Below, one piece after another: positions 10,261 to 29,935 of a stretch of DNA of 64,000 nt (positions are counted from its first letter, which is position 1; every line of letters begins with the position of its first letter). The stretch lies in contig BPJB01000001.1 of NCBI GenBank assembly GCA_026004395.1, positions 905,226 through 969,225 of the forward strand, given 5' to 3'. The stretch comes from Patescibacteria group bacterium. Its GTDB lineage: Bacteria > Patescibacteriota > Microgenomatia > Levybacterales > UBA12049. Made by a program: the position numbers and the translations under genes. The notes under the pieces were generated by a model. The model did no database searches. It saw only the letters and a program-made list of their open reading frames with translations, and was not told where the DNA came from.

Positions 10261-10284
10261 CCTCAAATGTATACTTATTGAATG

Positions 10285-10314
10285 ACAAGTATACAGGTAT
10301 ACCTGTATACTTGT
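10285..10314. repeat. 30-nt perfect palindrome ACAAGTATACAGGTATACCTGTATACTTGT (family 1)
   Basis: The sequence is its own reverse complement. It sits between convergent genes (9043..10260 plus strand, 10353..11276 minus strand). An identical copy is at 11915-11944. Confidence 0.85.
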
Positions 10315-10352
10315 TAACTACATCTATCAATCAAATAGCTTAATTTATTCCT

Positions 10353-11276
10353 TTAACGTCTTTGCGGGGTTGCGATTACAAAAAGCCTCTTCCACGTGGT
10401 CCCCGGAGGCCAACAGGTTTGCAGAATGAGTTTTTGAACTCCTGTGTGCTGACTATTCACCAGCAGATCAACATCATCTGCATCTTTAATCTCTATATGA
10501 TCTACTACATAGTTATATCTTCTGCCCTCAAAAAAAATGATTACCTCATCTCCTTTTTGCAGCTCCTTAAGAAGATAAAACACAGCATTATATCTGCCAA
10601 CATTCCAAAAATTATCTGTAGAATGAGCAAAGATATAAGTATTGCCCTCAAATCCTGGAAAAACAGTCCCCTTTGCATGAGCAACACCTGTTTGAAGTAG
10701 TGGCAAAAATTCCTTCTCATTAGTTGGATCAACATTCGGATATACCTTTGAGGTTGCGCCGATTTTGGGAATAACAATACTAAACTGCGTATCTGGAGGA
10801 ACAAGTATTTGCTGCTTGGCTCCTATGAGTGCCTCACCAAAACCCGGAGCTGTCGTTTGTACGGCAGAAGATGTATTAACCTCGACAGTATATTTGATAT
10901 CTCTCATTTTGATGATTTGATATTTGACTTCATAGACAAGTACGGGTCCAAAAGTTGCACCTACACCATAGAGACTGAAAAGCACAAGAAAGTTACCAAT
11001 ACTGCGAAGAATTACAAATCGTATTTTCTCTCTTCTACTCATATAGTGATCAGTGGCAGCTGATGAAGAACTGTGATTAACAGTTGCATTTTTCAAAACT
11101 AGTTCTGAAATGGAATTGTTTTCTGTTTTACTACTAAATATAGATTTGGGAGATGATGTTTTCTGTACTTTTAAGGGGTAAAAACTCTCACCTTTATACT
11201 CATCATTATATGCACTACGACTGTTTTCTCGCTTACGTGTTTTTTGCAGGAAGTCCTTGCCATGTGTATAACTCAT
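10353..11276 (-). CDS. sortase-family transpeptidase with a Ser-rich cytoplasmic N-terminal extension and a TM anchor
   Basis: IVIPKIGATSKVYP... YIFAHSTDNFWN ... GDEVIIFFEGRRYNYVV ... KLILQTCWPPGTTWKRLFVIA. These give a TLxTC-type catalytic Cys context plus the His and Arg positions of the sortase fold. Confidence 0.65.
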   Translation of the reverse strand: MSYTHGKDFLQKTRKRENSRSAYNDEYKGESFYPLKVQKTSSPKSIFSSKTENNSISELVLKNATVNHSSSSAATDHYMSRREKIRFVILRSIGNFLVLFSLYGVGATFGPVLVYEVKYQIIKMRDIKYTVEVNTSSAVQTTAPGFGEALIGAKQQILVPPDTQFSIVIPKIGATSKVYPNVDPTNEKEFLPLLQTGVAHAKGTVFPGFEGNTYIFAHSTDNFWNVGRYNAVFYLLKELQKGDEVIIFFEGRRYNYVVDHIEIKDADDVDLLVNSQHTGVQKLILQTCWPPGTTWKRLFVIATPQRR

Positions 11277-11434
11277 GAGTATATTGTACTCTAAATCAAA
11301 ATTAGGTTAAATTCCTTCAATAATTTTTAAAAAAAACTTAAACTTAATAGACTACTAAAAACCTAATTCAAACAAACAGTTTGCCACTCTTTACATCCTT
11401 TTGTAAAAAATTAAAATTTGCAGCAATGTTATTG

Positions 11435-11507
11435 TACCCCTGGAGGGAATTGCACCCCCGACCAACCCCTTAGGACGGGGCTGCTCTATCTACTGAGCTA
11501 CAGGGGC
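11435..11507 (-). tRNA. tRNA-Arg (anticodon CCT)
   Basis: The reverse complement folds as GCCCCTG-TA-GCTC-AGTAGAT-AGAGC-A-GCCCC-GTCCTAA-GGGGT-TGGTC-GGGGG-TGCAATT-CCCTC-CAGGGGT-A. Anticodon loop is GT-CCT-AA. CCA is not encoded. Confidence 0.7.
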
Positions 11508-11770
11508 ATATTATCTATCATAATATTACTTTTAATATAAAAGTTATAAAAAATACATCAAGATTTGCATCTTATCTTGATCTATTCTATACTCATTTGC
11601 TCTTAAAGTAAAATATTTTGCGACCAAATTAAAACTAAGGATTAACACATCAGTTGTTATTCTAGAAAACATGTGAATGATAGTTAGGTAGGTTTTCCTG
11701 CACAATACAATATAGAAATAGAATAATAAAAATCAAATAAGGATTAAAAAGATATTAAAATTTCTCTTTG

Positions 11771-11845
11771 CGGAGTGTAGCGCAGTTGGTAGCGCGCAGC
11801 GTTCGGGACGCTGAGGTCGGCGGTTCGAGTCCGCCCACTCCGACC
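11771..11845 (+). tRNA. tRNA-Pro (anticodon CGG)
   Basis: CGGAGTG-TA-GCGC-AGTTGGTA-GCGC-G-CAGCG-TTCGGGA-CGCTG-AGGTC-GGCGG-TTCGAGT-CCGCC-CACTCCG-A-CC. The T-loop TTCGAGT and the D-loop are canonical. Confidence 0.75.
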
Positions 11846-11914
11846 TTCTATTTTATTTCACTTTTTCTAATCTCTCTGAGTTCTGAGACTATAAAAGTAG
11901 AAAAGATTAACCCT

Positions 11915-11944
11915 ACAAGTATACAGGTATACCTGTATACTTGT
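11915..11944. repeat. 30-nt perfect palindrome, family 1 (identical to 10285-10314)
   Basis: ACAAGTATACAGGTATACCTGTATACTTGT, between tRNA-Pro and the convergent gene 11967..12398. Confidence 0.85.
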
Positions 11945-11966
11945 TAATCTAAACTTATATTTGAAA

Positions 11967-12398
11967 CTAAGTTATATCTCCTTGATAAAGTTTTGCCCTG
12001 GATTGCATATCGTTCTTTGCTTGAAGTGCTAGATCCAAGGGTTTGAGTAACTCTGTTATATGCTCCCATAACTTACCCTTTTCACTCTGCTTTATCACTT
12101 GTCTTATTAAATCCTTAAATTGATTATCCTTCTCTGCCCAAGAAAGTTCAGAAACGCGAACCATCTCTTTACTTACTCCTATCAAATTTGCTATCTGAGA
12201 TGTTGTATATCCTTTCTCAAGTAGCATAAATACCATCAATCGTTTGGAGATCATTGTTTGTTCTTCTTTGGTAAAAAACTCGCGATACACTACCTGAGCG
12301 TTATCTTTTGAACTCAAAGAAGAAAAAAGATTAAAAATATTCTCCATCATCTCTTTTGCAAGAATAGATGGAATAGGAAATCTCGATGCTCTTGGCAT
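11967..12398 (-). CDS. small HTH DNA-binding protein (TrpR/YerC-like)
   Basis: 143 aa. RLMVFMLLEKGYTTSQIANLIGVSKEMVRVSE resembles a TrpR/sigma-region-4-type HTH. Weak. Confidence 0.35.
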   Translation of the reverse strand: MPRASRFPIPSILAKEMMENIFNLFSSLSSKDNAQVVYREFFTKEEQTMISKRLMVFMLLEKGYTTSQIANLIGVSKEMVRVSELSWAEKDNQFKDLIRQVIKQSEKGKLWEHITELLKPLDLALQAKNDMQSRAKLYQGDIT

Positions 12399-12433
12399 AT
12401 ATACAGGTATACATGTATACCTGTATACTTGTC
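12399..12433. repeat. family-1 palindrome variant (TATACAGGTATACATGTATACCTGTATACTTGT)
   Basis: An extended copy carrying an extra TACATGTATA unit. It lies in the divergent promoter region between 11967..12398 (minus) and 12532..13275 (plus). Confidence 0.7.
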
Positions 12434-12531
12434 AAGAAGAAGTAAGAATACTCCTAAGATTAGTAGTGCCTTATCTTAAAAGTAAATAATTAGAATCAAT
12501 TTAGATCAGATAACAGTGCTATACTATCAGC

Positions 12532-13275
12532 ATGAAACTTCTCTCACTTGCTCCATCTTGCACAGAGATACTTTATGCATTAGGTCTGGGTGATCAAATT
12601 GTTGGGACAACTGTTTACTGCGATTATCCTCCTGATGCCCAAAAAAAGCTAAAAATAGGATCGTGGATCACCACACAACCTGAAAAAATCAAAGCACTTA
12701 AGCCCGATCTTATCTTTACCTCCTATTTTCTCCCGGAACCACTTATTGGATGGACTGGACCCGGAGAAATAATTCATATTGTACCTCGCACACTTGATGA
12801 TATCCAAGAAAGTTTTAAAATCATCGGTAGAGTCACCAAACAATATTGTAGAGCTTTAGAACTTGTTCAGAGATTTAAATATCAGCTTGAACAAATTCGC
12901 CTTTCTCAACCGACTACACGACCTAAGGTTTATATGGAAGAATGGCCATCACCTCCTATGGTAAGCGGCAACTGGATACCCGAAATAGTCGCAATAGCAG
13001 GAGGTATTCCTGTCATCGCTAAAAAGGGACTGCCAAGTTGTGAATTTAATTTCCAAGAATTAGCAAGAGAAGATCCTGATGTTATGATTTTTCACTGGTG
13101 CGGCTTTGGAGATCGCTGGAATAAATCTATCATAATAAATCGCAATGGTTGGAAAGATCTCAAAGCAATTCAAAAAAATACATTATTTGTTATCCACGAC
13201 TCATTGCTTAACCGCCCATCACCAAGATTGGTTATTGGTGCACAAAAACTCCAACAGATATTTGCAAATCTTTAG
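12532..13275 (+). CDS. periplasmic-binding-protein fold (BtuF/FhuD-like, Peripla_BP_2) protein
   Basis: LLSLAPSCTEILYALGLGDQIVGTTVYCDYPPDAQKKLKIGSW...KIKALKPDLIFTS matches the cobalamin/siderophore-binding PBP signature. No obvious signal peptide. Confidence 0.55.
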   Translation: MKLLSLAPSCTEILYALGLGDQIVGTTVYCDYPPDAQKKLKIGSWITTQPEKIKALKPDLIFTSYFLPEPLIGWTGPGEIIHIVPRTLDDIQESFKIIGRVTKQYCRALELVQRFKYQLEQIRLSQPTTRPKVYMEEWPSPPMVSGNWIPEIVAIAGGIPVIAKKGLPSCEFNFQELAREDPDVMIFHWCGFGDRWNKSIIINRNGWKDLKAIQKNTLFVIHDSLLNRPSPRLVIGAQKLQQIFANL

Positions 13276-13303
13276 TATTTTGTTATAAGTAAATTAACAG
13301 TTC

Positions 13304-13771
13304 ATGAAACAAGAACCCAAATTAATTATTTTTCTTTTGCGTTTAAGTCTTGCTTGGATTTTCCTCTACTCAAGTATAAGTAAGATAATTGCAAGTGATT
13401 GGACCTCAGCTGATTTTCTTAAAGGAGCATCAAGCTTAAAACCGCTTTTTGACTGGTTTGCTAGCCCTCAAAATATTGGGTGGGTTGATTTTCTCAATAT
13501 TTATGGTCAACTGGCTTTAGGTATTGCACTTCTCTTAGGAATTTTTTTACCAATTGCAGCAATCGGTGGAGTAGCAATGATGTCACTTTATTATTTAGCA
13601 CAAATTCATTTTCCTTACGTAGGACGTGGAACGCTTTTTCTGCTTATTGATGATCATGTGATTTATTCATTATGTCTGCTACTTCTTTGGAAGTTTGATG
13701 CGGGTAGATACTTAGGTCTTAAAACACAAGTTGCGCAACTATTAGGAAACAGATTACAAAAACTTAACTAA
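13304..13771 (+). CDS. DoxX-like small membrane protein
   Basis: LLRLSLAWIFLYSSISKI... with 3-4 predicted TM helices. Confidence 0.45.
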   Translation: MKQEPKLIIFLLRLSLAWIFLYSSISKIIASDWTSADFLKGASSLKPLFDWFASPQNIGWVDFLNIYGQLALGIALLLGIFLPIAAIGGVAMMSLYYLAQIHFPYVGRGTLFLLIDDHVIYSLCLLLLWKFDAGRYLGLKTQVAQLLGNRLQKLN

Positions 13772-13798
13772 ACAAAATAGAATTAATGCTTTAAGAGC

Positions 13799-14371
13799 TT
13801 AAATCTTCTCCTCAGCTCTTTCGTAGCTGTGAATTTCCTCAGGTGTAAACCAAAGCATTTTTTCAAAGTTAGCTTCCTCTAGAGATCCTGAGATATGAAT
13901 CAAATTACTCACTCCTCGCCTTTCAACATTGGCATATGCTGCTGAATCTGTTGAGAAATCACCGCGTATTGTACCTGCCGGAGCTGCAACAGGCATTGTT
14001 GGCCCTGCTAGACGAATTACATTATCAACTGCATGACGTCCTTCAAGAAGAATTGCGATCACAGGTCCTGACTGCATATAATCCATAAGCCATCCCACTA
14101 CTAATTTGCCTAATTCTTTAGGATCATCTGTACCAAAATCTTTTTTTGCATCCTTGCCGTATTTTTGATAAGTATCAAGGGTTTTCCTACCGAGTCTCTC
14201 AATAGTTGCTTCTTTCTCAGTTCCATAATGCTTGTGGAAGTGTTCACGACTAGGCTTTGTCATTTTCATGGCAACAATTTTGAGTCCACATCTCTCAAAA
14301 CGATGAAGGATTTCTCCAACAACTCCTCTTTTTACTGCATCTGGTTTCATCAAGACAACTGTTTGTTCCAT
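13799..14371 (-). CDS. ndk: nucleoside diphosphate kinase
   Basis: EQTVVLMKPDAVKRGVVGEILHRFERCGLKIVAMKM ... NLIHISGSLEEA (active-site His region). It carries an internal insertion of about 40 aa compared with typical Ndk proteins of about 140-150 aa. Confidence 0.85.
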   Translation of the reverse strand: MEQTVVLMKPDAVKRGVVGEILHRFERCGLKIVAMKMTKPSREHFHKHYGTEKEATIERLGRKTLDTYQKYGKDAKKDFGTDDPKELGKLVVGWLMDYMQSGPVIAILLEGRHAVDNVIRLAGPTMPVAAPAGTIRGDFSTDSAAYANVERRGVSNLIHISGSLEEANFEKMLWFTPEEIHSYERAEEKI

Positions 14372-14443
14372 ATCTATCTAATATTTAAAAATAAAACTCC
14401 TCTCTAAATGAGTATAATTCTTTGGTCACTTAATCTCAACCTT

Positions 14444-15718
14444 TTAGAATTGTACCACTTCTTCAAGTGCTTGTCTATCTTCAAAATTGCCAATAAGGGC
14501 AAGATTAAGACCACGATTGACAAAATATTTTTTCCCTACTTCCTCAATCTCTTCTATTGTTACTGCATCAACTTTTGCAAGCACATCATCAGGATTAAGT
14601 ACCTCTTTTTCTAAAAGCTCTTGGTGGGCATAGAAAGTACAAACAGATCGTGAGTCTTCAAGCTCAAGCACCAAATGACCTTTAATATATTCTTTGGCTT
14701 TTCTAAGCTCTGCTTCAGTGATCTGCATTTTACCTTCGGCTACTTTTCTATACTCGTGCATCATAACCTCAACTGCTTCTTTTACTCTCTTAGGATCAAT
14801 ACCAGCAAGAGAGACAAGACTTCCACAATCCAGATACTCATCTGAGTGCGATTTAACGTAGTATGCAAGACCTCTTTTTTCCCGCACCTCACTAAAAAGG
14901 CGTGAAGACATTCCCCCACCCAAGATTGACGCCAGTACAGATAAAGGATATTTCTCAGGATTATTAATGGATACTGTGCGCACACCAAGAGCGATATGTA
15001 TCTGTTCAGTTTTTTTCAAGCGGATGAGAATCTGAGGTTTTTCTTGTTTTTCAATAACGCCAACTGGTTTTTTTGTCTCAAATTTTTTCATCTTGCCGAA
15101 ATAATCTTCTACCAACTCGACAATTTTTTGCTCCTCTATTCCACCAGCGACGACAACGGTCATATTATGAGGGCTATAAAAAGATGAGAGATACTCTACA
15201 AAATCATCACGTGTAATTGAGCGAATAACATCCTTCTCTCCAGCAATATCCCAACCCATTGGCGTATCATCGTACAGCAACTGTTCATAGACGTCGCTGA
15301 TTTTACGCATGGGCATATCCTCGTAGAGATTGATCTCTTCAATAATTACACCTTTTTCTTTCTCTATCTCTGCGGGATCAAGCCTGCTGTTCTGAAGCAT
15401 ATCTGAGAGAACATCTAGCGTTATTTCGACATTATTTTTTCCTGCTTTCACATAGTAACCTGTGTATTCCTTACCTGTAAAAGCGTTAAACTCCCCACCA
15501 ATTCCATCAATAAGGCTGGAAATGTCCATGGCTGTTGGACGCTTTTTGGTACCTTTAAAAGCCATATGTTCCAAAAAATGAGATATGCCATTATTTTTCT
15601 TGGTTTCATATCTAGATCCGGCACCCACCATCACCAAAGCCGTAGCAGATTCGAAAGAAGGCATGGGAATTGTTAAAATTCTTAAACCATTAGAAAGTAA
15701 GTGTTTGTTGTACTTCAT
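14444..15718 (-). CDS. M16-family zinc peptidase (insulinase/pitrilysin-like)
   Basis: Inverted zinc motif HxxEH in GISHFLEHMAFKGT, followed by ...EY... for the downstream Glu. 424 aa. Confidence 0.8.
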   Translation of the reverse strand: MKYNKHLLSNGLRILTIPMPSFESATALVMVGAGSRYETKKNNGISHFLEHMAFKGTKKRPTAMDISSLIDGIGGEFNAFTGKEYTGYYVKAGKNNVEITLDVLSDMLQNSRLDPAEIEKEKGVIIEEINLYEDMPMRKISDVYEQLLYDDTPMGWDIAGEKDVIRSITRDDFVEYLSSFYSPHNMTVVVAGGIEEQKIVELVEDYFGKMKKFETKKPVGVIEKQEKPQILIRLKKTEQIHIALGVRTVSINNPEKYPLSVLASILGGGMSSRLFSEVREKRGLAYYVKSHSDEYLDCGSLVSLAGIDPKRVKEAVEVMMHEYRKVAEGKMQITEAELRKAKEYIKGHLVLELEDSRSVCTFYAHQELLEKEVLNPDDVLAKVDAVTIEEIEEVGKKYFVNRGLNLALIGNFEDRQALEEVVQF

Positions 15719-15943
15719 AAGATCATTGAGATTAAAACAACAGTTGAAATTTGCTCATTTTGCTTAAAATCTAAATTATTTTGTTCTGCTATTTTAGCAT
15801 TATCTTCTTAAGTTGCCAACCCTATTAATTCCTCAACAGCATATGCTTTCTCTCAGTGTCCATTTACAATCTATCACTATCAAAATATGAATTAATATAT
15901 ATTATAATATCAGTATCTTTAAGGTTTTCTATTGTATATGTAA

Positions 15944-15970
15944 GGTATACAAGTATACCTGTATACCTGC
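15944..15970. repeat. family-1 palindromic repeat variant (GGTATACAAGTATACCTGTATACCTGC)
   Basis: Shares the GTATACCTGTATAC core. Downstream of argS and upstream of the M16 peptidase gene. Confidence 0.7.
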
Positions 15971-16034
15971 AAAAGTTAGTTTGAATCTGCTGATGAGTCA
16001 AATAAGTTGTCTGACTCAGATCAATATTGAATAT

Positions 16035-18494: not shown

Positions 18495-18578
18495 TAATAT
18501 GCGGGAATAAACAGCGAAAGATCGTATCAATATTTCTCGCCTTAGCAAACTAGGTCATTTGAAATAAAAACTGATAAA

Positions 18579-19643: not shown

Positions 19644-20525
19644 TTACTTTATGCTATAAGTTTCACCATTAGTTTTTATTGTAATATCAGCATCTTTGTC
19701 TGTGCGATAGACGAGAATTCCTCTCTCAGATAAAAGACTTAAAGTAAAAGACGCAGGATGCTTATACTTATTATTGCTCCCCACTGAGATTGTAGCCACT
19801 TGTGGATCAAGCAATTTGAGAATCTCCCTTGTCAAACCTGTACGCGAACCATGATGAGGAACTTGTAAGACCTCAATATGGGGAATCTCTTTCTTAAAAC
19901 TGGACTCTAATGCATCTTGCAGTTGAGCTGCTTGCGTATCACCTGTAAGTAGAAAATCAAAATTTTTGTAGGAGAGAAGTATGATTAGAGAAGCAAACTC
20001 ACCTGTTTCTCTAATAATGCCATTATCAGATGTTCTCTTAAGAAACTCTGAGGAAGGACTCAGTACACGTAGTAAAATTCCATCAGACGTTCGCAAAACG
20101 TAAGAATCATCTATGATAATACGCCTGAGACCCTTTTTTTGGATAGTTCTTATCAAGGTTTTATAGCCCTCAGTATTATTAATTAAATCCTCTGTAACAA
20201 ACTGTTTTACTTTATAAGCACCCAAAACCTCAATAAGCCCATCCAGATGATCTGCATGAGGATGGCTAAGGATTACTAACTCAATTGTTCTATCCCAGAA
20301 AGGCATAAATTTAAAAAGACAGTTTAATACTTTTTTATCCGGTCCACCATCAAAAAGAATATCCTGCCCTTTTGGTGTTCGAATATAGATAGCATCTCCC
20401 TGACCCACATCACAAACGTTGATATGCAGTCTCCCATCGCCTACCTCGACCATATAGTAAATAAAAAGCAAGATAAAAAAGAGTATTGGAAAAAAGATAA
20501 AAAGGACAAATTTCATAAACTTCAT
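19644..20525 (-). CDS. MBL-fold metallo-hydrolase, ComEC C-terminal-domain-like (separate ORF)
   Basis: N-terminal TM, then VCDVGQGDAIYIRTPKGQDILFDGGP...VILSHPHADHLDGL (HxHxDH metallo-beta-lactamase motif). Lies 40 bp downstream of the comEC competence-domain ORF. Confidence 0.7.
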   Translation of the reverse strand: MKFMKFVLFIFFPILFFILLFIYYMVEVGDGRLHINVCDVGQGDAIYIRTPKGQDILFDGGPDKKVLNCLFKFMPFWDRTIELVILSHPHADHLDGLIEVLGAYKVKQFVTEDLINNTEGYKTLIRTIQKKGLRRIIIDDSYVLRTSDGILLRVLSPSSEFLKRTSDNGIIRETGEFASLIILLSYKNFDFLLTGDTQAAQLQDALESSFKKEIPHIEVLQVPHHGSRTGLTREILKLLDPQVATISVGSNNKYKHPASFTLSLLSERGILVYRTDKDADITIKTNGETYSIK

Positions 20526-20565
20526 TAAGTTTTGATTATGCGACTAAGATAAAGACTTTACTAAG

Positions 20566-21819
20566 TTAGCTAATTGTTCTGTGCTTTTTAGAAATCAAAA
20601 ACGCAATAATAAGAATATAATAACCAATAATAATTGGCCATGGCAGAAAGTTGATCGAAAAAATAGGTGTTATAGGAGCAAAAATCCGAACCATTGTCTC
20701 AAAATAGAATAAAAATGGCAGGCTCAAAAGCGCTACAAGACCTCCCAGAGGTGGTAGAATAAGCCCTAACAAAGATGCCACTCCTCCAATGATCATTAAA
20801 GGAGGTATCGTCCAAAGTACTAATGCATTGACTACAACAGAAAGTAAGCCATAACTATGAAAATAAGCCAAAAGAAGCGGTACTGTTGCCAACTGTGCTG
20901 CAATCGTAGCTGCTAAATCATCTTGAATAAGAAATGACAAATTCTTACTGGATCCTTTCCCATCTTGCTTGGAAATAGCAAGATGTGGACGAAGGAAGAT
21001 CATCCCTGCCGTTGCTGCAAATGAAAGCTGGAAACCAATATCTTCTATAAGATCAGGATTTAACAAAAGCATCAGAGATGCTGTCAGAAACAAAGTCACA
21101 AAAGCAGTATTCTGACGGCCTAAAAGGTAGGCTGAAAAAGTAATTACAGCCATGATACCAGCTCGCATAATTGATGGCTCAAGACCAGCAATTATTGTAT
21201 AAAAAGCTATTCCTAAAATACTTAGTTTGATAGCTAATGATCTATTAAAGTAATGATTAAGAAATGTCATGAGAAATCCAGCAACTAGGGCTACATTCAT
21301 CCCCGATGCTGCAACCACATGCATAAGGCCAGTTGATTGAAGATCTTTCACAAATTCATCAGGTAATGACTTCTGACCCAAAACAATTCCTAAGAGAAGA
21401 GAGCTTGCTGTTGGAGGCAAACTAGCGCTGAAAGTCTCTCTTATTCTCTCTCTAATCCAAGTGGCTGAAATAAATAAAAGATTGATATCATTTTGTATGA
21501 TTTGAATCTGAGGAAATGACATGGTTGTAATTATTTTTCCATTATCGAGAACATAATGATCTACTGTTCCTCTGACTTGAAGCAGTTGACCATAAAGATA
21601 GCGGGGATACTTTGTCGTCCTTACCAAAATAGACTCTCCGTTGGGTGCTTTGAGGAAGAATTGTTGCGTATGATTTTTTTCTTTGGGTGTTGTTACTAGT
21701 CGCGTCGTGAATGAGATCTCCTCTCCCTCTGCTAGAGGCGAGGGATTCCCATGGAGGACAACTCTTAAAATAACGATTAGTAAAACAGTGCTATACAAAA
21801 TTAGGAGTCTGGAGGTCAT
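20566..21819 (-). CDS. comEC: DNA internalisation channel protein ComEC (competence domain only)
   Basis: GLMHVVAASGMNVALVAGF...IMRAGIMAVITFSAYLLGR...FQLSFAATAG matches the ComEC/Rec2 competence domain. Multi-TM. Confidence 0.75.
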   Translation of the reverse strand: MTSRLLILYSTVLLIVILRVVLHGNPSPLAEGEEISFTTRLVTTPKEKNHTQQFFLKAPNGESILVRTTKYPRYLYGQLLQVRGTVDHYVLDNGKIITTMSFPQIQIIQNDINLLFISATWIRERIRETFSASLPPTASSLLLGIVLGQKSLPDEFVKDLQSTGLMHVVAASGMNVALVAGFLMTFLNHYFNRSLAIKLSILGIAFYTIIAGLEPSIMRAGIMAVITFSAYLLGRQNTAFVTLFLTASLMLLLNPDLIEDIGFQLSFAATAGMIFLRPHLAISKQDGKGSSKNLSFLIQDDLAATIAAQLATVPLLLAYFHSYGLLSVVVNALVLWTIPPLMIIGGVASLLGLILPPLGGLVALLSLPFLFYFETMVRIFAPITPIFSINFLPWPIIIGYYILIIAFLISKKHRTIS

Positions 21820-21825
21820 AATTAT

Positions 21826-22443
21826 TTATAATGAAAGTTGGTTTTTGATCTTCTCAAAGAGCTTTTCTGAAATCACTTTTTTGGTAATTAACTCCTCAAT
21901 AGCCGAATAAGGACGATTATCAATGATCTTTTTTGCTGTAATTTGACCAATTCCAGGAAGCTTATCTAGCTCACTTTCTGTGGCATTATTTATACTGATA
22001 AAGCCTTGTGCGTAAGATGATGAGTCAACATCTACCCCTTTAAAGCTTTCTTTAAATGAAGTATCTCCCATCACATCTTCCCCTTCAAAAGGAAAATAAA
22101 GCTTCATCCCATCATTAAGAAGAGCTGCTAGATTAATTGTTTTGGCAATCCGCAGATCATCTGCCTCATCTACTAGACCCCCAGCCTTTTTTAGCGCATC
22201 GCTGACTCTATCTCCTTTTGAGAGTTCATAAACCCCTGGATTTTTGACAGCACCCTGAATATCAACTACCAGCTTCTCACGTGAAATTGAATTATTTTCA
22301 TCTTTTTCAATAACAATTTCTTCTTTAGTATCTTGATTTGCAATATACAGAAATCCCCCATAAGCAATTAATACTATTCCCAAAAAACTAAGAATAATTA
22401 CCATCTTACGCTCTTTAATGAAAGTGAAAACAAACTCTTCCAT
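21826..22443 (-). CDS. comEA: competence protein ComEA (SLBB + helix-hairpin-helix DNA-binding)
   Basis: N-terminal TM. VDIQGAVKNPGVYELSKGDRVSDALKKAGG (SLBB). ININNATESELDKLPGIGQITAKKIIDNRPYSAIEEL (HhH). Confidence 0.8.
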   Translation of the reverse strand: MEEFVFTFIKERKMVIILSFLGIVLIAYGGFLYIANQDTKEEIVIEKDENNSISREKLVVDIQGAVKNPGVYELSKGDRVSDALKKAGGLVDEADDLRIAKTINLAALLNDGMKLYFPFEGEDVMGDTSFKESFKGVDVDSSSYAQGFISINNATESELDKLPGIGQITAKKIIDNRPYSAIEELITKKVISEKLFEKIKNQLSL

Positions 22444-22485
22444 TCTCTTTTTAGATTATAAATAATTTAACAGACAGTAAAGTGA

Positions 22486-22513
22486 CAGGTATACAGGTAT
22501 ACCTGTATACCTG
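22486..22513. repeat. family-1 palindromic repeat (CAGGTATACAGGTATACCTGTATACCTG)
   Basis: Downstream of leuS and upstream of comEA. Confidence 0.7.
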
Positions 22514-22524
22514 CAAAATGAGGA

Positions 22525-25287
22525 TTAGTGGGTGACAAAGTTTATTATTTTACCTGGTATGTAGATAGTCTTTTGGATTGTCTTTCCTTTGAGGTGGCGC
22601 TTTATACTCTCCTCTCTTTTCACAAGATCAATAATTTCCTCCTCTGTAATTTTTTTGACTGAGGGTACAGATAAAGTACCACGCAGCTTGCCATTCACTT
22701 GAACTGCAATTACTATCTCTTCCTCTTTTATAGCAGATGGATCAAACTTAGGCCATGAAGAGGTATGAATTGACTCAAAGAGTTGAGAATCTGAAGTATT
22801 AGTTCCTTTCGCATTTGCTTTTCTGCCTGATAATCTGATCTTTTGCATATTTAATCTTTGATAAAGCTCTTCTGTCAGATGCGGAGCAAAAGGGGCCAAT
22901 AATTTTAAAAGCACCTCCAACTCCTGCTTCATTATCTCTCTCTTCTTGCTTAAAAAATTATAGTAAGTCATTATCTTGGCAATGGCTGTGTTATAGTGAA
23001 ATGCCTCAAGGTCTGCGGTCACTTCTTTAATTGTTTTGTGCATTTTGGAGAGATCTGATTGAGTTAAGCGATCATTCTGTTTATAAGACATTGCATTTTG
23101 TCCATCAATTTGAGACACAACAAGTGTCCAAACACGTTTGAGGAAGCGATGAATACCTTCAATACCATTATCACGAAAATCCCCTCCTTGGCTAAAGGGT
23201 CCAATAAACATCAGATATGTTCTTAGCGTATCAGCGCCAAATTTCTTAATATATTGATCTGGGACAACTACATTTCCTTTACTTTTACTCATCTTAGCAC
23301 CATCTTTGATGATGAGTCCATGAGCAAAAAAGCGCGGGAAGGGTTCATCGTCTCCGGTCATGTATCCCAAATCGTATAATACTTTGTATAAAAATCGTGT
23401 GTACAAAAGGTGAAGTACTGCATGCTCAGCACCACCAGTGTAGAGGGTCACTGGAAGCCATTTGACTCGCTTCTTGGCTTTTGACACTTCCTCTGTCAGA
23501 CTGCCAATCTCCTCACGTGTTCTTGCTGGATGAAGCTCTGTCATTATTTCATCTCGATCAAATGCAAGAGATGGGAAAGGAAGGTGCTTTAAATCAGTAG
23601 CAAGATAACGCAAAAAGTACCAACTGGAGTCAAGAAATGTATCTGAGACATCTGTTTCTCTTCTAGCTTGTGATCCACACTCAGGGCAAACTGTTTCAAA
23701 AAACTCCAGATGATTTGCCAAAGGAGAAGCCTCTGTACCCAAAGGTTTATAATCCTCAATCCTTGGCAGAAGCACTGGAAGATTCTCCTCAGGATACCAT
23801 CCAGCAGAATTCCATTCTTTATAATTGGAAATAGCTTCAACTTGTAGTTTTTCCCTCTGTTTCTTATTCTGAGTAAACCACGATTTACCCTCCCTAGCGC
23901 ATTTTTCACAATAAATCATCGGTATCGGCGGTCCCCAATAACGCTGACGAGAGATAATCCAATCTCTAAGGTGATAATGGACTTCTTTCTTGCCAAATCC
24001 TTTTTTCTCAATATCCTCAATAATCTGTGAAATACTCTCGGGAACTTTTAATCCCTCCCAATCTCCTGAGTTAATAACTATTCCCCCTCCTTGATAAGCT
24101 TGTTTGGTGATATCTCCTCCTGATACAACCTCAACTATAGGAAGATCATATTTCTTAGCAAACTCAAAATCTCGCTGATCATGAGCTGGAACTGCCATAA
24201 TCGCACCCGTACCATAACTTATTAAGACATAATCAGCAATCCAGATAGGAATTTTTTGCCTGTTAGCAGGATTGATCGCATAAATCTGAGAAAATACCCC
24301 TGTTTTTTCCCTACCCTCTGCCACTCTCTCCTGTTCTGTTTTATTTTTGGCAGATAGAACATATTCGCGGATTGCCGCTTTAGCATCAATAGATGCTTCT
24401 TCAAGAAGCTCATCAACAAGAGGATGTTCAGGAGAAATTACCAAAAATGTCGCTCCATAGAGAGTATCCGGTCTTGTTGTAAATACTTCAATGAATTTAG
24501 TCTGCAACTCTTTATTCTCTAATTCAAACCTTATTCTTGCTCCTTCACTTTTACCAATCCAACTTTTCTGTGCAATCTTAACTTTTTCAGTCCAGTCAAT
24601 TTTTTGCAACCCTTCAAGAAGACGCTCAGCATATGCTGTGATACGAAAAAACCACTGCTCAAGCTCTTTCTTCTCAACCTGTGTACCACAGCGCTCACAG
24701 ACACGAAGAGTAATTTCTTGACCATCCTTAGATTCTGTTTTGGGGATTACCTGTTCATCTGCCAAGACTGTTTTACAGGATGGACAGAAATTAACAGGAG
24801 CTTTTTCTCTATAGGCAAGACCTGCTTTAAAAAGCTGGATAAAAATCCACTGTGTCCATCTGTAGTATTCAGGTTTCCAGGTTTCAACTTTGTTCTCCCA
24901 GGCAAAAGAACTTCCCGTTGATCTCATCTGGCGATAAAAATTCTCCTCACTTTTCTCAGCCTGATCCATCGGGTGAGTTCCAACTTTCAGAGCGTAGTTT
25001 TCAGAATGGATACCAAACCCATCAAGACCGATAGGCTCAAATACATCAAATCCCTGCATTCTTTTAAACCGCCCATAAATATCAGCTCCTGTTTGAGCAT
25101 ACATATTGCCAACATGCAATCCCTCGGCTGAGGGATAGGGGAACATCATGAGATTATAAAATGGTGTTTTAGCAGTATCCAAATCCGGCTGATATATCCT
25201 TTTGGATTGCCAAATAGATTGCCAATAAGGCTCAATCGTTTGAGGATCATATTTTATTGTTTTTTCCTGTTTCCTATCCTGCTTCAT
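22525..25287 (-). CDS. leuS: leucyl-tRNA synthetase
   Basis: PYPSAEGLHVGNMY... (HIGH-like region, present as HVGN). GAKMSKSKGNVVVP (KMSKS). ...GADTLRTYLMFIGP. 920 aa, with editing-domain-sized insert. Confidence 0.9.
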   Translation of the reverse strand: MKQDRKQEKTIKYDPQTIEPYWQSIWQSKRIYQPDLDTAKTPFYNLMMFPYPSAEGLHVGNMYAQTGADIYGRFKRMQGFDVFEPIGLDGFGIHSENYALKVGTHPMDQAEKSEENFYRQMRSTGSSFAWENKVETWKPEYYRWTQWIFIQLFKAGLAYREKAPVNFCPSCKTVLADEQVIPKTESKDGQEITLRVCERCGTQVEKKELEQWFFRITAYAERLLEGLQKIDWTEKVKIAQKSWIGKSEGARIRFELENKELQTKFIEVFTTRPDTLYGATFLVISPEHPLVDELLEEASIDAKAAIREYVLSAKNKTEQERVAEGREKTGVFSQIYAINPANRQKIPIWIADYVLISYGTGAIMAVPAHDQRDFEFAKKYDLPIVEVVSGGDITKQAYQGGGIVINSGDWEGLKVPESISQIIEDIEKKGFGKKEVHYHLRDWIISRQRYWGPPIPMIYCEKCAREGKSWFTQNKKQREKLQVEAISNYKEWNSAGWYPEENLPVLLPRIEDYKPLGTEASPLANHLEFFETVCPECGSQARRETDVSDTFLDSSWYFLRYLATDLKHLPFPSLAFDRDEIMTELHPARTREEIGSLTEEVSKAKKRVKWLPVTLYTGGAEHAVLHLLYTRFLYKVLYDLGYMTGDDEPFPRFFAHGLIIKDGAKMSKSKGNVVVPDQYIKKFGADTLRTYLMFIGPFSQGGDFRDNGIEGIHRFLKRVWTLVVSQIDGQNAMSYKQNDRLTQSDLSKMHKTIKEVTADLEAFHYNTAIAKIMTYYNFLSKKREIMKQELEVLLKLLAPFAPHLTEELYQRLNMQKIRLSGRKANAKGTNTSDSQLFESIHTSSWPKFDPSAIKEEEIVIAVQVNGKLRGTLSVPSVKKITEEEIIDLVKREESIKRHLKGKTIQKTIYIPGKIINFVTH

Positions 25288-25493
25288 ATTCTGGAGTATA
25301 TCACAGAGCGGTTATAGTGATCTAGTATAAAATATTGGGATTTAAAGAAAAAAACTTTTTGATGATGTTTGATATATCTAGATATACTTTTGATTAATCC
25401 TAATAATCTTTCATAAATTAGTCAAAACTTATATTAAGAAAATGTGAAAAAATAAACCTGCAACATCTGAACATTTGTTGTATAGTAAAGAGT

Positions 25494-26171: not shown

Positions 26172-26266
26172 CCTTGTTACACTATACTATTGCTTCAGGA
26201 CTTTAAACTCTTCTGATGTTAAGAAGAGAGTGGAGCCAAAAATAAAACAAATGTAATTAGGCAATT

Positions 26267-27019
26267 ATGAAAAGCGCTACTATCATTACACTAAGCATTT
26301 TTATTATCTTATTCTTACTAGGTCAAAAGCTGCCTCCTGTTAATCATGTATTAGCCTTTACAATGATTGGTGATAACTGGAAAATTGACTTTGCCAATCT
26401 GAATATGGGAGGGGCAACTCAACTGGGATCAGGCAAAAAACTGACATTTACCACAGGTCAAACTGCACCCGGACTCTATACAGGCACTAATTATAAAGTA
26501 CGCGCTGGATTTCAGTATGTCTATACTCTTATTCCTTTCCGCTTTAGTATCTCCCAAACTCAAATTGACTTTGGCACCCTCACACCGACTAACCCTGTTA
26601 CTAGAACGAATACGCTGACAATTTCTAATGGATCTGCCAATGGTTATCAAGTAACAGCTTTTGAAGATCATCAACTTCTCAATCCTGCCAATGGCATGTT
26701 GATACCTGATACTACCTGTGACAATGGACTCTGTACAGAAACAACGTCAGCACAATGGACTAATACACTCACCTATGGGTTTGGTTATCGCTGCGATAAT
26801 ATAACAGGAACCGATTGTGCAACAGGGTTTACAAATAGCAATTATTATAAACAGTTTGCAGACTCATCCCTCAACGAATCACCCCAATCAGTAATGTCCG
26901 GAACCAACGTTGGACGCAGTAAACAAGTTCAGATTACTTATAAAGTCAATATCTCAGGTACTCAGCCGGCAGGAACATATACGAACGTCATAACCTATAT
27001 TGCTACACCAACATTTTAA
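26267..27019 (+). CDS. secreted WxL-like surface protein (module 2, A component)
   Basis: Signal peptide. Gly/Thr/Asn-rich beta-type sequence with conserved Cys pairs. C-terminus ...GTQPAGTYTNVITYIATPTF. Homologous to the 28447..29925 product and to the fragment at 1..204. Confidence 0.5.
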   Translation: MKSATIITLSIFIILFLLGQKLPPVNHVLAFTMIGDNWKIDFANLNMGGATQLGSGKKLTFTTGQTAPGLYTGTNYKVRAGFQYVYTLIPFRFSISQTQIDFGTLTPTNPVTRTNTLTISNGSANGYQVTAFEDHQLLNPANGMLIPDTTCDNGLCTETTSAQWTNTLTYGFGYRCDNITGTDCATGFTNSNYYKQFADSSLNESPQSVMSGTNVGRSKQVQITYKVNISGTQPAGTYTNVITYIATPTF

Positions 27020-27033
27020 GAAAGGCAATTAAA

Positions 27034-28131
27034 ATGAAGATCTTGCAAAAAATAGTTTTATCTACTGGAATTTTTTGTCTCCTCTTCATTATTTTTCCAT
27101 CGGATATCAAAGCGGCAACTTTTGATCTTGCTGTCAATCCTTCAATTTTTCAGATAGAGCTTAATCCTCCTGCTATTATTGAAGCAAAAAAATCATTGAC
27201 TATAGAAAATCTCAGTGACACTCCACTAACTCTGTCTATCCAATACAGACCCTTTAAGCCGAAAGATGAGTCCGGAATAATAGAATATTTGCCACGGGAA
27301 GACAGTTTTGTTGGAGCTGATCCTCTTATCTTTCAGAGAATACATATTATTGAAAATAATAATCCGATTGAGCAAATTACTCTGGCACCCAAACAAACAA
27401 AAAAACTTGATCTTAAAATGACAATCCCTAAAGATGAGCCTCCATCTGATTACTATTTTGCCATTCTTTTTCTCAGCCAAGAAGAAACTTCAGACAGTCT
27501 GCAAAGCTCATATTCAAATTATGTTGGTGGTATCGGAGTTAGTGTACTTCTTTCAATAGGTCCCAAAAAAGAAACAACTGGAAAAATTGAGGAATTCTCA
27601 ACATCTTTTTTCCATGAGAAAAGCCCTGTACCCTTTACAGTACGTATCAGAAATACGAGTCAGCACTTCATCTACCCCAAAGGACAGATAACAATCAAAA
27701 ATATGTTTGGTCAGACAATCGGAATTGTTGATTTGTTGCCTGTTAATATTTTGGCAAACTCTATTCGCGCTCTGCCAAGTAAGGAGAATTTTATCTTTGC
27801 TGCACAAAAAAATAGATTAAACATTGCTGAAGAAGACTCAAAATCATTCTCCAAAGAAGAGTTGGAAATGATAAAGCAATATGAAAAAATAATGAAAAAC
27901 GAGCAATCAAATCTCTCAATCAGTCCGAAGGCTTTTTGGAACGGAGGGTTTTTGCTTGGACCCTACTCTGCCACTTTGACTGTAGCTCTGAGTGATCAAG
28001 GTCCTCTCCTTACACGAACTATTCATTTTTTTGCACTACCAATCTATCTTATAATTACTTTTTTTATTGTCATTGCTATTGTCTTGTTTATTCGTCAGAG
28101 ATTGAACAAGATTAGGACCAAAGTATCCTGA
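27034..28131 (+). CDS. DUF916/CscA-like anchored surface protein (module 2, B component)
   Basis: Signal peptide. AVNPSIFQIELNPPAIIEAKKSLTIENLSDTPLTL... The C-terminal hydrophobic helix is followed by the basic tail RQRLNKIRTKVS. Start is 15 bp after the A gene. Confidence 0.55.
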   Translation: MKILQKIVLSTGIFCLLFIIFPSDIKAATFDLAVNPSIFQIELNPPAIIEAKKSLTIENLSDTPLTLSIQYRPFKPKDESGIIEYLPREDSFVGADPLIFQRIHIIENNNPIEQITLAPKQTKKLDLKMTIPKDEPPSDYYFAILFLSQEETSDSLQSSYSNYVGGIGVSVLLSIGPKKETTGKIEEFSTSFFHEKSPVPFTVRIRNTSQHFIYPKGQITIKNMFGQTIGIVDLLPVNILANSIRALPSKENFIFAAQKNRLNIAEEDSKSFSKEELEMIKQYEKIMKNEQSNLSISPKAFWNGGFLLGPYSATLTVALSDQGPLLTRTIHFFALPIYLIITFFIVIAIVLFIRQRLNKIRTKVS

Positions 28132-28285
28132 TTAAAATCTTTCTTGCAAACTAAGATCAATATTTGCAACCTTAGCTAGAACAAAAACTCTCAATTTTTA
28201 AAAACTCTACTTTCTGCTGCTATATTTTTTACATGCAGTCAAAGGCTAACAAATTATAAAAATCAATATCAAATAGAATATTGCC

Positions 28286-28315
28286 AAGTATACCTGTATA
28301 CCTGTATACCTGTAT
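28286..28315. repeat. family-1 repeat variant (CAAGTATACCTGTATACCTGTATACCTGTATA; TATACCTG x3)
   Basis: Between module 2 and module 3. Confidence 0.7.
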
Positions 28316-29925: not shown

Positions 29926-29935
29926 AAGGAGCATT

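What the first reader, a model, noticed from the sequence alone, without database searches (positions are those of the whole stretch)
10285..28315. Family of GTATAC-based perfect palindromes at six intergenic sites, mostly at convergent or 3' gene ends
Seen directly: the 30-nt self-complementary sequence ACAAGTATACAGGTATACCTGTATACTTGT occurs identically at 10285 and 11915. Those two copies bracket the sortase gene and both tRNAs. Variants built from the same GTATACCTG units occur at 12399, 15944, 22486 and 28286. Five of the six lie within a few tens of bp of a stop codon (after the PEGA gene, tRNA-Pro, argS, leuS and a DUF916 gene), as expected for bidirectional terminator or REP-type elements. 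The sixth sits in a divergent promoter next to a small HTH regulator gene. The core GTATAC is itself a 6-bp palindrome typical of Type II restriction targets. Candidate roles are terminators, regulator operators, or recombination sites that delimit a sortase-tRNA cassette.
Basis: seen in the sequence. Interest (0 to 1): 0.6.

Follow-up and report, generated by a model that had tools for sequence, protein, structure and literature searches.

The report
Operator sites of a TrpR-like regulator
The repeated GTATAC palindromes are most likely the DNA docking sites of a small Trp-repressor-like regulator encoded next to them in an uncultured Patescibacteria genome; the regulator's gene is flanked by such sites at both ends, and another site sits in front of DNA-uptake genes.

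Summary
Six intergenic clusters each carry 3-4 GTATAC hexamers spaced exactly 8 bp apart, against about 0 expected by chance. They are not terminators, REP elements or cassette borders. The 143-aa gene at 11967-12398(-) is a Trp_repressor-family protein. One array abuts its ATG, and a second lies 22 nt after its stop.

The same layout, operator then gene then operator, holds across the family. In 24 homologous loci (33-86% identity) with varied neighbours, 24/24 have the upstream site. Of the 22 loci with sequence past the stop, 21 have the downstream site. The two copies co-vary between lineages. The upstream copy usually supplies the -10 box of a leaderless mRNA.

The basic operator is arm-RTATAY-NN-RTATAY-arm. 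This matches the E. coli trp operator plan, two palindromic hexamers 8 bp apart, so the arrays probably bind dimers in tandem.

The comEA-comEC site is conserved in four relatives. The other sites (PBP-DoxX, M16-NDK, a 492-aa gene, the PEGA/sortase gap) are less well conserved.

The role of the sites at gene 3' ends is unresolved; looping or a roadblock are the candidates. No binding has been shown experimentally. One relative lacks the regulator gene at the syntenic position.

The parts
11967..12398 (-). Gene for a 143-aa Trp_repressor-family (TrpR/YerC-like) regulator, the proposed binder of the arrays.
   Evidence: Pfam PF01371 scores 31.1 bits against a cut-off of 27. A profile search of PDB finds 3kor at 2.4e-8, plus 3frw and 3g1c. 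The AlphaFold2 model has pLDDT 81, and its top Foldseek hits are E. coli TrpR (including 1TRR and 1TRO) and YerC-like structures. The N-terminus MPRAS is invariant in the 14 aligned homologues, which fixes the ATG at 12398.
12399..12436 (-). Site 3, the upstream operator. Four hexamers (GTATAC AG GTATAC AT GTATAC CT GTATAT on the minus strand) fill the space between a TTGACA -35 (12431-12436) and the ATG. It is shared with the divergent PBP-DoxX promoter.
   Evidence: Relatives L121-L123 have TTGACA-N18-(T/C)ATACT followed by 6-7 nt and then ATG. Across the family the operator centre is usually 14 nt before the ATG.
11915..11944 (.). Site 2, the downstream operator. A perfect 30-nt palindrome 22 nt after the regulator's stop codon, in the convergent gap with tRNA-Pro.
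   Evidence: A downstream copy is present in 21 of the 22 homologous loci that have sequence past the stop.
10285..10314 (.). Site 1. A 30-nt palindrome identical to site 2, in the 92-bp convergent gap between the PEGA gene and the sortase gene.
   Evidence: The equivalent site is present in L121 (12020-12033) and degenerate in L122 (11941).
15941..15970 (-). Site 4. Three hexamers 226 bp upstream of the M16 peptidase-NDK genes and 68 bp after the argS stop.
   Evidence: It is intact in L153 (16495-16516), degenerate in L121 and absent in L122.
22485..22514 (-). Site 5. A 28-nt perfect palindrome (22486-22513) 41 bp upstream of comEA and 10 bp after the leuS stop.
   Evidence: It is conserved at the same position in L152/L153, L154/L155 and L156/L157.
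28286..28317 (+). Site 6. The direct-repeat array (GTATACCT)3 running into TATAAT, 129 bp upstream of a 492-aa gene of unknown function.
   Evidence: In L153 the same spot holds a single GCAGGTATACCTGC followed by CATAAT.
19644..22443 (-). comEA-comEC-metallo-beta-lactamase genes (DNA uptake), a candidate regulated operon downstream of site 5.
   Evidence: Pfam hits to SLBB/HHH_3, Competence and Lactamase_B.
12532..13771 (+). Periplasmic-binding-protein (Peripla_BP_2) and DoxX genes, divergent from the regulator gene and sharing site 3.
   Evidence: Gene order is conserved in L121-L125.
13799..15718 (-). M16 peptidase and nucleoside-diphosphate kinase genes, downstream of site 4.
28447..30925 (+). 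Genes for 492-aa and 329-aa proteins of unknown function, downstream of site 6.
   Evidence: no Pfam match.

Best explanation
The six GTATAC arrays are operator sites for the Trp_repressor-family protein encoded at 11967-12398(-).

Shown directly:
- The protein belongs to the TrpR family.
- In every family member examined, its gene is bracketed by an upstream and a downstream copy of a GTATAC-centred palindrome.
- The two copies change together between lineages.
- The upstream copy overlaps the core promoter. In most loci its right hexamer plus T forms a TATAYT -10 box ending 7 nt before the A of the ATG, which fits a leaderless mRNA.

Inferred:
- The protein binds as dimers to the unit arm-RTATAY-NN-RTATAY-arm. 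This is the plan of the E. coli trp operator (TGT-ACTAGT-TA-ACTAGT-ACA), two palindromic hexamers 8 bp apart. The 3-4-hexamer arrays of this lineage would bind two or three dimers in tandem, 8 bp out of register, as E. coli TrpR does.
- Binding at the regulator's own promoter shuts it off (autorepression).
- The downstream copy is usually the cleaner palindrome, because it does not also have to encode a -10 box. It probably acts as an auxiliary high-affinity site that helps occupancy of the promoter site by looping over about 450-500 bp, perhaps through the extra C-terminal helices. Alternatively it acts as a protein roadblock at the gene's end.
- In this lineage the regulon has grown to include comEA-comEC (conserved in four relatives), PBP-DoxX, M16-NDK, a 492-aa gene and the PEGA/sortase gap.
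- The effector molecule, and the sign of regulation at comEA and M16, are unknown. At those genes the array lies about -40 to -70 from a conserved -10 box.
For: 1. Family membership. Pfam PF01371 scores above its cut-off. A profile search of PDB hits the YerC-like structures 3kor, 3frw and 3g1c. The predicted fold best matches E. coli TrpR, including the tandem-binding complex 1TRR.

2. Bracketing. The upstream operator is present in 24/24 loci. The downstream operator lies within 2-56 nt of the stop in 21/22 loci. Protein identities are 33-86% and the neighbouring genes differ. Shuffled loci give at most 0.16 arrays.

3. Co-variation. Both copies of a locus share lineage-specific arms, spacers and hexamer variants. 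Examples are ATGTCCAGTATACTGGACAT (both copies) in L126, TATACTAGTATACCAGTATTGT (both copies) in L133, and ATATAC..GTATAT in L134 and L146. Operator type also tracks the recognition-helix sequence: the SRQTV(L/S)TH clade has single-hexamer sites and the S(K/R)EMVRV clade has 3-4-hexamer arrays.

4. Symmetry. Asymmetric features sit in direct orientation in L128 and L133 but inverted in L134 and L146. This fits a symmetric binder, not a directional signal.

5. Promoter overlap. A TATAYT -10 ends at -7 in 13/24 loci and at -8 in 3 more, with a TTGnnn -35 hexamer 17-19 nt upstream.

6. Same plan as the trp operator. The motif TGTAcTnGTnnACnAgTACA and the 8-bp half-site spacing are quoted in PMC9413887.

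7. An independent distant case. In a Peribacteria genome (L065), GTATACCAGTATACTGGTATAC lies 39 nt upstream of another Trp_repressor ORF.

8. The comEA site is conserved in four distinct relatives.

9. No other HTH regulator was found among the window ORFs scanned.
Against: - There is no binding experiment. The assignment rests on the logic that regulators are usually encoded next to their own sites.
- GTATAC arrays with an 8-bp period are not specific to TrpR-like proteins. In Firmicutes they sit in promoters of GntR/FCD regulators, and in Listeria and Enterococcus next to ParA genes. GTATAC is also the core site of DipR and of CcdA.
- Relative L153 keeps intact arrays at comEA and M16 but has no TrpR-like gene at the syntenic position, only a decayed remnant. 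The contig ends 220 bp further on, so the gene may lie elsewhere.
- In the window itself the -10 candidate is TATACC, which lacks the T at -7.
- Sites 1 and 2 lie in convergent gaps where no promoter is expected, so simple promoter occlusion cannot explain them.
- Operator centre-to-centre distances (444-507 bp) show no clear helical phasing, which gives looping no positive support.
- The Foldseek E-values are weak (0.07-0.5) even though the reported probabilities are 0.99-1.0.
Confidence: 0.76

Rival explanations
1. The palindromes act as RNA hairpins: bidirectional intrinsic terminators, or REP-like elements that stabilise mRNA at gene 3' ends.
For: Sites 1, 2, 4 and 5 fold into 11-15-bp RNA stems of about -21 kcal/mol (z about -5). 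The three perfect palindromes (sites 1, 2 and 5) lie 24, 22 and 10 nt after a stop codon. The family-wide downstream copy starts 0-25 nt after the stop in most loci.
Against: - No U tract follows any of them, and the terminator scan calls none of the six.
- Site 6 is a direct repeat with no hairpin (z = -0.8), yet it has the same hexamer period.
- A terminator has no reason to copy, lineage by lineage, the sequence that overlaps the gene's promoter.
- The upstream copies lie upstream of the predicted transcription start, so they would not be in the RNA.
- The copies are confined to 18 kb around the regulator gene and absent from the other 46 kb, unlike dispersed REP elements.
Confidence: 0.12
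2. The arrays are operators of a different regulator encoded elsewhere in the genome, for example a GntR/FadR-type protein. The TrpR-like gene would then be merely one of its targets.
For: In more than 10 Firmicutes loci the identical GTATAC-NN-GTATAC-NN-GTATAC array lies between the -35 and -10 of GntR+FCD regulator genes. DipR (GntR/FadR family) binds GTATAC. L153 keeps arrays without a local TrpR-like gene.
Against: No GntR gene is present in the window ORFs scanned, and none appears among the genes called next to the homologues. The one constant partner of the arrays across 24 loci is the TrpR-like gene itself, bracketed on both sides with co-varying sequence.
Confidence: 0.07
3. The identical 30-mers are recombination sites or borders of a mobile cassette: the sortase-tRNA segment, or the regulator gene itself flanked by repeats.
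For: Identical 30-mers lie 1.6 kb apart. The regulator gene is exactly flanked by near-identical repeats in many lineages. One relative, L153, lacks the gene and retains a single decayed repeat, as a repeat-mediated deletion would leave. A DDE transposase gene lies next to the gene in L127.
Against: Gene order PBP-regulator-tRNAs-sortase-PEGA is conserved in L121 and L122 at 77-86% protein identity. No recombinase gene accompanies the module. The same arrays occur at single-copy promoter positions (comEA, M16), where a cassette border makes no sense.
Confidence: 0.04
4. The clusters are targets of a GTATAC-specific restriction-modification system or methyltransferase.
Against: Outside the arrays GTATAC occurs 10 times against 9.6 expected, so it is neither avoided nor enriched. 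The strict 8-bp period, the palindromic arms and the RTATAY variants in relatives are properties of a transcription-factor site, not of a restriction-modification target.
Confidence: 0.01

Closest known systems
E. coli Trp repressor (TrpR) and its trp/aroH/trpR operators, including tandem binding (PDB 1TRO, 1TRR)
   Same: Same Pfam family and same predicted fold. The operator has the same plan, two palindromic hexamers with a 2-bp spacer (8-bp period) and short palindromic arms: ACTAGT-TA-ACTAGT there, GTATAC-NN-GTATAC here. Extra hexamers in register suggest tandem dimers. The regulator's own gene carries an operator in both systems.
   Different: - The protein fails the TrpR equivalog model (TIGR01321, 18.4 bits against a 67.25 cut-off).
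- It is 143 aa, with an invariant MPRAS N-terminus and two extra C-terminal helices.
- The hexamer sequence differs.
- No trp genes lie near any site.
- A second operator directly after the stop codon is a family-wide feature. To my knowledge this has not been described for TrpR.
HisR / YerC (histidine repressor of Firmicutes, TrpR family; PMC9413887)
   Same: These are the closest solved relatives by sequence (3kor, 3frw, 3g1c). The operators are 20-bp palindromes, and autoregulation is frequent.
   Different: HisR proteins are under 100 aa, and their motif is cacTTTAnnnnnnTAAAgtg. The protein here is 143 aa with a GTATAC-based motif. No his genes lie at the sites seen.
Auxiliary-operator looping systems (lac O1-O2 about 400 bp apart; lambda OR-OL bracketing cI) - from my own knowledge
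   Same: A promoter-overlapping operator is paired with a second operator a few hundred bp downstream. In lambda the repressor gene lies between the two operator regions.
   Different: Oligomerisation and looping are untested here. The downstream site abuts the stop codon instead of lying inside a coding region or at another promoter.
GntR/FadR-family operators with a GTATAC core (e.g. DipR, PMC11472048) and the CcdA operator (PMC5389731)
   Same: The same GTATAC palindrome is used. In Firmicutes loci L007, L020, L032, L034, L075 and L110, three hexamers at an 8-bp period lie between -35 and -10.
   Different: The adjacent regulator belongs to a different protein family (winged HTH plus FCD domain, or ribbon-helix-helix). 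No such gene is seen near the Patescibacteria sites.

Membership tests
Trp_repressor family (Pfam PF01371) | Sequence match above the curated Pfam cut-off | tested here: met
   31.1 bits against a cut-off of 27, covering residues 18-100. A profile search hits 3kor at 2.4e-8.
Trp_repressor family (Pfam PF01371) | TrpR-type all-helical fold with an HTH (helices D and E) | tested here: met
   The AF2 model has pLDDT 81. The top 20 Foldseek PDB hits are all TrpR or YerC-like chains (TM normalised to target 0.66-0.81, probability 0.97-1.0), although E-values are only 0.07-0.8.
Trp_repressor family (Pfam PF01371) | Operator of two palindromic hexamers 8 bp apart inside a roughly 20-bp palindrome | tested here: met
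   Operators in 24 loci follow arm-RTATAY-NN-RTATAY-arm. The TrpR consensus TGTAcTnGTnnACnAgTACA is quoted in PMC9413887. That the protein binds these sites is inferred, not shown.
Trp_repressor family (Pfam PF01371) | Intertwined dimer; DNA binding dependent on a small-molecule co-repressor | not testable with these tools
   Only a monomer model was made, and no ligand information is available.
trp operon repressor proper (NCBIfam TIGR01321 equivalog) | Score above the equivalog cut-off; control of trp/aro genes | tested here: not met
   18.4 bits against a 67.25 cut-off. No trp genes are next to any of the six sites.
HisR / YerC histidine repressor | Protein under 100 aa; motif cacTTTAn6TAAAgtg; sites at his genes | tested here: not met
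   The protein is 143 aa, its motif is GTATAC-based, and the adjacent genes are comEA, M16, PBP and others. The HisR features are taken from PMC9413887.
Intrinsic (rho-independent) terminator | G+C-rich stem-loop followed directly by a U tract | tested here: not met
   None of the six sites is among the 14 terminator-like calls. The stems are A+U-rich, no T run follows them, and site 6 has no stem.
REP / MITE-like dispersed palindromic repeats | Many copies scattered through intergenic regions, independent of any one gene, at non-orthologous positions | tested here: inconclusive
   There are only 6 copies, all within 18 kb of the regulator gene, and none in the other 46 kb. Copies sit at orthologous positions in relatives. 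The rest of the 1.08-Mb genome could not be scanned.
GntR/FadR operator | A cognate GntR-family gene adjacent to or co-occurring with the sites | tested here: not met
   No GntR hit among the window ORFs scanned, and none among the genes called next to the homologues. The rest of the genome was not seen.
Looping auxiliary-operator systems (lac- or lambda-like) | Two operators for one repressor a few hundred bp apart, plus repressor oligomerisation that bridges them | tested here: inconclusive
   The two-operator part is met: 444-507 bp centre to centre in 21 loci. There is no helical phasing signal, and oligomerisation is not testable here.

The most novel reading that the evidence does not exclude
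A previously uncharacterised Patescibacteria-centred branch of the TrpR family (566 clusters at 50% identity with E<=1e-10) is built as a compact, self-contained module: operator, leaderless gene, operator. The copy that abuts the stop codon would work by looping or as a protein roadblock, which acts as a protein-made terminator or insulator in genomes poor in intrinsic terminators. In at least one lineage the regulator would control the comEA-comEC DNA-uptake machinery on which these reduced bacteria are thought to depend.
Probability: 0.3. Interest if true: 0.7.

Novelty: new variant of a known kind. Interest (0 to 1): 0.55.

Why it matters
Almost nothing is known about transcriptional control in Patescibacteria (CPR), which cannot be grown alone. 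This analysis yields a concrete regulator-operator pair with a clear sequence rule and a testable set of target genes. One target, comEA-comEC, encodes the DNA-uptake system thought to be central to the scavenging lifestyle of these organisms.

The family-wide placement of a second operator right after the regulator's stop codon is an unusual design. If it acts by looping or as a roadblock, it would be a simple new case of a self-insulating autoregulatory gene.

A methodological point also follows. GTATAC arrays with an 8-bp period are used by unrelated DNA-binding families, so the motif alone does not identify the binder.

Tried and rejected
- Terminator reading. The consensus scan and RNA folding found stable A+U-rich hairpins at four sites but no U tracts, and no hairpin at site 6.
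- Known RNA families. Rfam finds only the two tRNAs in the window.
- Restriction-site reading. GTATAC outside the arrays occurs at the expected frequency.
- Cassette reading. Gene order and tRNAs are conserved in L121 and L122.
- Using the motif alone to find relatives. Most have nothing to do with TrpR-like genes: they are GntR/FCD promoters, ParA-adjacent arrays, or long (GTATACCT)n tandem arrays in Chloroflexota. Only L065 (Peribacteria) had a Trp_repressor ORF beside the array.
- Helical phasing of the two operators as a looping signature. Distances of 444-507 bp show no clear 10.5-bp pattern.
- Sigma-70 promoter scan as evidence. The total number of promoter-like hits in 10-29 kb is no greater than in shuffles (67 against 62), so single promoter calls are weak. 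I relied instead on the fixed geometry relative to the ATG across 24 loci.
- Structured leader upstream of the M16 gene. The sequence is conserved, but the consensus fold is weak (-10 kcal/mol) with little covariation.
- Literature. No paper was found on TrpR-like regulators in CPR or on this operator.

Full report
**1. The observation**

The 30-mer ACAAGTATACAGGTATACCTGTATACTTGT occurs identically at 10285 and 11915. Close variants lie at 12403 and 22485, and none is expected in shuffles. Searching for GTATACCTGTATAC with up to 2 mismatches, or for two RTATAY hexamers 8 bp apart, gives exactly six clusters at 10289, 11919, 12399, 15945, 22489 and 28288. Shuffles give 0.14-0.3.

What all six share is not perfect palindromy. 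It is 3-4 GTATAC hexamers at a strict 8-bp period:
- Sites 1, 2 and 5 are perfect palindromes.
- Site 3 has four units.
- Site 4 has asymmetric spacers.
- Site 6 is the direct repeat (GTATACCT)3 followed by GTATAA.

All six are intergenic (P about 1.4e-5). GTATAC outside the arrays occurs at the chance frequency (10 against 9.6).

**2. Gene context**

The window comes from 'Patescibacteria group bacterium KatS3mg089', on a 1.08-Mb contig. The relevant genes are these:

| Coordinates | Strand | Gene |
|---|---|---|
| 9043-10260 | + | PEGA |
| 10353-11276 | - | sortase |
| 11434-11507 | - | tRNA-Arg |
| 11771-11845 | + | tRNA-Pro |
| 11967-12398 | - | 143-aa Trp_repressor-family protein |
| 12532-13771 | + | Peripla_BP_2 and DoxX |
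| 13799-15718 | - | M16 peptidase and NDK |
| 16035-17834 | - | argS |
| 19644-22443 | - | comEA, comEC and a metallo-beta-lactamase |
| 22525-25287 | - | leuS |
| 27034-28131 | + | WxL-interacting-protein-like (DUF916) |
| 28447-29925 | + | 492-aa unknown |

Sites 3, 4, 5 and 6 each lie upstream of a gene start: the regulator and PBP genes (divergent), M16, comEA and the 492-aa gene. Sites 1 and 2 lie in convergent gaps.

**3. The regulator**

- The protein matches Pfam PF01371 above its cut-off.
- A family profile finds the YerC-like structures 3kor, 3frw and 3g1c in PDB.
- An AlphaFold2 model (pLDDT 81) is most similar to E. coli TrpR, including the operator complexes 1TRO and 1TRR, and to the YerC-like structures.
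- It is not the trp repressor proper (TIGR01321, 18 bits against a 67 cut-off).
- It differs from HisR/YerC, which is under 100 aa and has the motif cacTTTAn6TAAAgtg (PMC9413887).
- It carries an invariant MPRAS N-terminus, which fixes the start codon at 12398.
- It has two extra C-terminal helices, residues 110-138.
- The branch is sizeable: 566 clusters at 50% identity with E<=1e-10.

**4. The decisive comparison**

I collected 24 loci that encode members of this branch (33-86% identity) from relatives and metagenomes.

The bracket is general.
- A GTATAC-centred palindrome lies immediately upstream of the ATG in all 24 loci.
- A second copy lies 2-56 nt after the stop codon in 21 of the 22 loci that have sequence there. 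It often overlaps the stop codon itself, as in TAG|TATAC....
- The neighbouring genes differ between loci, so the gene itself is the constant partner of the sites.

The two copies of a locus resemble each other in lineage-specific detail.
- L126 has ATGTCCAGTATACTGGACAT at both ends.
- L133 has a 22-nt identical repeat.
- L134 and L146 have ATATAC..GTATAT.
- Operator type tracks the sequence of the predicted recognition helix.

Asymmetric features are in direct orientation in some loci and inverted in others. This is expected for a symmetric protein, not for a directional signal.

An independent, more distant case came from the motif scan. A Peribacteria genome has GTATACCAGTATACTGGTATAC 39 nt upstream of another Trp_repressor ORF (L065).

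**5. How the own-gene site works**

- The operator centre is typically 14 nt before the ATG.
- In 13 of 24 loci the right hexamer plus T forms a TATAYT -10 box ending exactly at -7 relative to the A of the ATG. It ends at -8 in three more.
- A TTGnnn -35 hexamer, TTGACA in many loci, lies 17-19 nt upstream.
- The gene is therefore probably transcribed as a leaderless or near-leaderless mRNA, with the operator occupying the whole core promoter. This is classical autorepression by occlusion.
- Where the -10 needs T at -7 the upstream copy departs from symmetry, while the downstream copy is the clean palindrome (L141, L144, L147).
- In the window the geometry is TTGACA-N18-TATACC-N7-ATG, so its -10 is weaker than in L121 and L122, which have TATACT.

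**6. Operator plan**

The basic unit is arm-RTATAY-NN-RTATAY-arm, 20-24 bp. The E. coli trp operator consensus TGTAcTnGTnnACnAgTACA has the same plan: two palindromic hexamers (ACTAGT) with a 2-bp spacer and 3-bp arms. TrpR half-sites recur with 8-bp spacing (PMC9413887; the 1TRR title).

I therefore infer that the 3-4-hexamer arrays of the window lineage bind two or three dimers in tandem. Hexamer number changes in 8-bp steps between relatives: site 6 has three and a half units in the window and one unit in L153.

**7. Regulon in this lineage**

| Site | Conservation in relatives |
|---|---|
| comEA (site 5) | Same position in four distinct relatives, with a conserved TATAAT/TATACT -10 just downstream |
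| M16 (site 4) | Intact in L153, degenerate in L121, absent in L122 |
| PEGA/sortase gap (site 1) | Present in L121, degenerate in L122 |

At comEA and M16 the array lies roughly -40 to -70 from the conserved -10 box. Alternatively it carries its own weak embedded promoter (TTGACA- or TTTGCA-N18-TATACC). I cannot tell whether the regulator represses or activates there. More distant family members show only the bracket pair within the flanks available.

**8. The 3'-end sites**

Simple promoter occlusion does not explain sites 1 and 2, or the family-wide downstream copy.

They can form RNA hairpins of about -21 kcal/mol, but they lack U tracts and are not called as terminators. A pure terminator also would not track the promoter operator's sequence from lineage to lineage.

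My preferred reading is an auxiliary high-affinity operator that assists the promoter site by looping over 444-507 bp. The distances give no phasing support for this. A protein roadblock or insulator at the gene end is the main alternative. Both remain inference.

**9. Caveats**

- Nothing here shows binding.
- GTATAC arrays with the same 8-bp period occur in many phyla beside unrelated DNA binders: GntR/FCD regulators in Firmicutes, ParA in Listeria and Enterococcus, and long tandem arrays in Chloroflexota. GTATAC is also the known core of the DipR and CcdA sites.
- Relative L153 has intact comEA and M16 arrays but no regulator gene at the syntenic spot, only a decayed remnant. The contig ends 220 bp beyond it.

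**10. Verdict**

The system is a new variant of a known kind: a TrpR-family repressor with a TrpR-type operator plan. It sits in an uncharacterised Patescibacteria branch and has an unusual, conserved operator-gene-operator layout. In this lineage it is likely linked to the DNA-uptake genes.

I found no paper describing it.

Noticed in passing
L007, L020, L032, L034, L037, L057, L075, L095, L110 (genome-contig hits): In Paenibacillus, Tetragenococcus and Clostridia genomes, the same GTATAC-NN-GTATAC-NN-GTATAC array lies between a TTGAC(A/G) -35 and a TATACT -10. These promoters sit directly upstream of, or divergent from, 217-251-aa GntR+FCD regulator genes. They look like autoregulated GntR/FadR promoters that use the same hexamer period.
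   Followed up: partly
L010 2654-4452; L067 729-2135: In Listeria newyorkensis and Enterococcus ratti, several GTATACCAGTATACTGGTATAC arrays cluster around ParA-like ATPase genes. They may be plasmid partition or centromere-like sites.
   Followed up: partly
L019, L022, L023, L027, L040, L063, L090, L105, L111: Long head-to-tail arrays of 5-10 or more 8-mers such as (GTATACCT)n, (GTATACTT)n and (GTATACGG)n occur in Chloroflexota, Flavobacteriales and others, flanked by degenerate units. Their function is unknown.
   Followed up: no
L153 19944-20164, compared with L122 9722-10413 and window 11846-12531: One close relative lacks the TrpR-like gene between the PBP gene and the tRNA. Only a decayed operator remnant remains (TTTACAAGAATACAGAAAGG), as a deletion between the two flanking operators would leave. 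Its comEA and M16 arrays are intact.
   Followed up: partly
window 15719-15900 (-); L121 6452-6685; L122 6310-6540; L153 16517-16753: A leader of about 200 nt upstream of the M16 peptidase gene is well conserved, including the block TTGGCAACT.AA.AAGAT..TGCTAAAATAGCAG.ACAAAA. It has no Rfam match, and its consensus fold is weak (-10 kcal/mol). Relatives have an extended -10 box (TGATATAAT) at its start.
   Followed up: partly
window 28288-28317 versus L153 about 4110-4125 (reverse strand): The number of hexamer units at one orthologous site differs between relatives: three and a half units in the window, one in L153. This suggests gain or loss in 8-bp steps by slippage.
   Followed up: partly
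window 34305-59646: A block of very large ORFs (1526, 2946, 523, 1228 and 1545 aa) has raised G+C, about 0.42-0.48 over 36-54 kb against 0.34-0.39 in most of the remaining window. They are possibly giant surface proteins and were not examined.
   Followed up: no
window 2781-3206 (+): A PIN-domain protein gene scores 24.1 bits against a cut-off of 23.6. It may be a toxin-antitoxin toxin; the partner gene was not looked for.
   Followed up: no
window 10269-10274: A lone extra GTATAC lies 9 nt after the PEGA stop codon and 20 bp before the first hexamer of site 1, so it is out of the 8-bp register.
   Followed up: no
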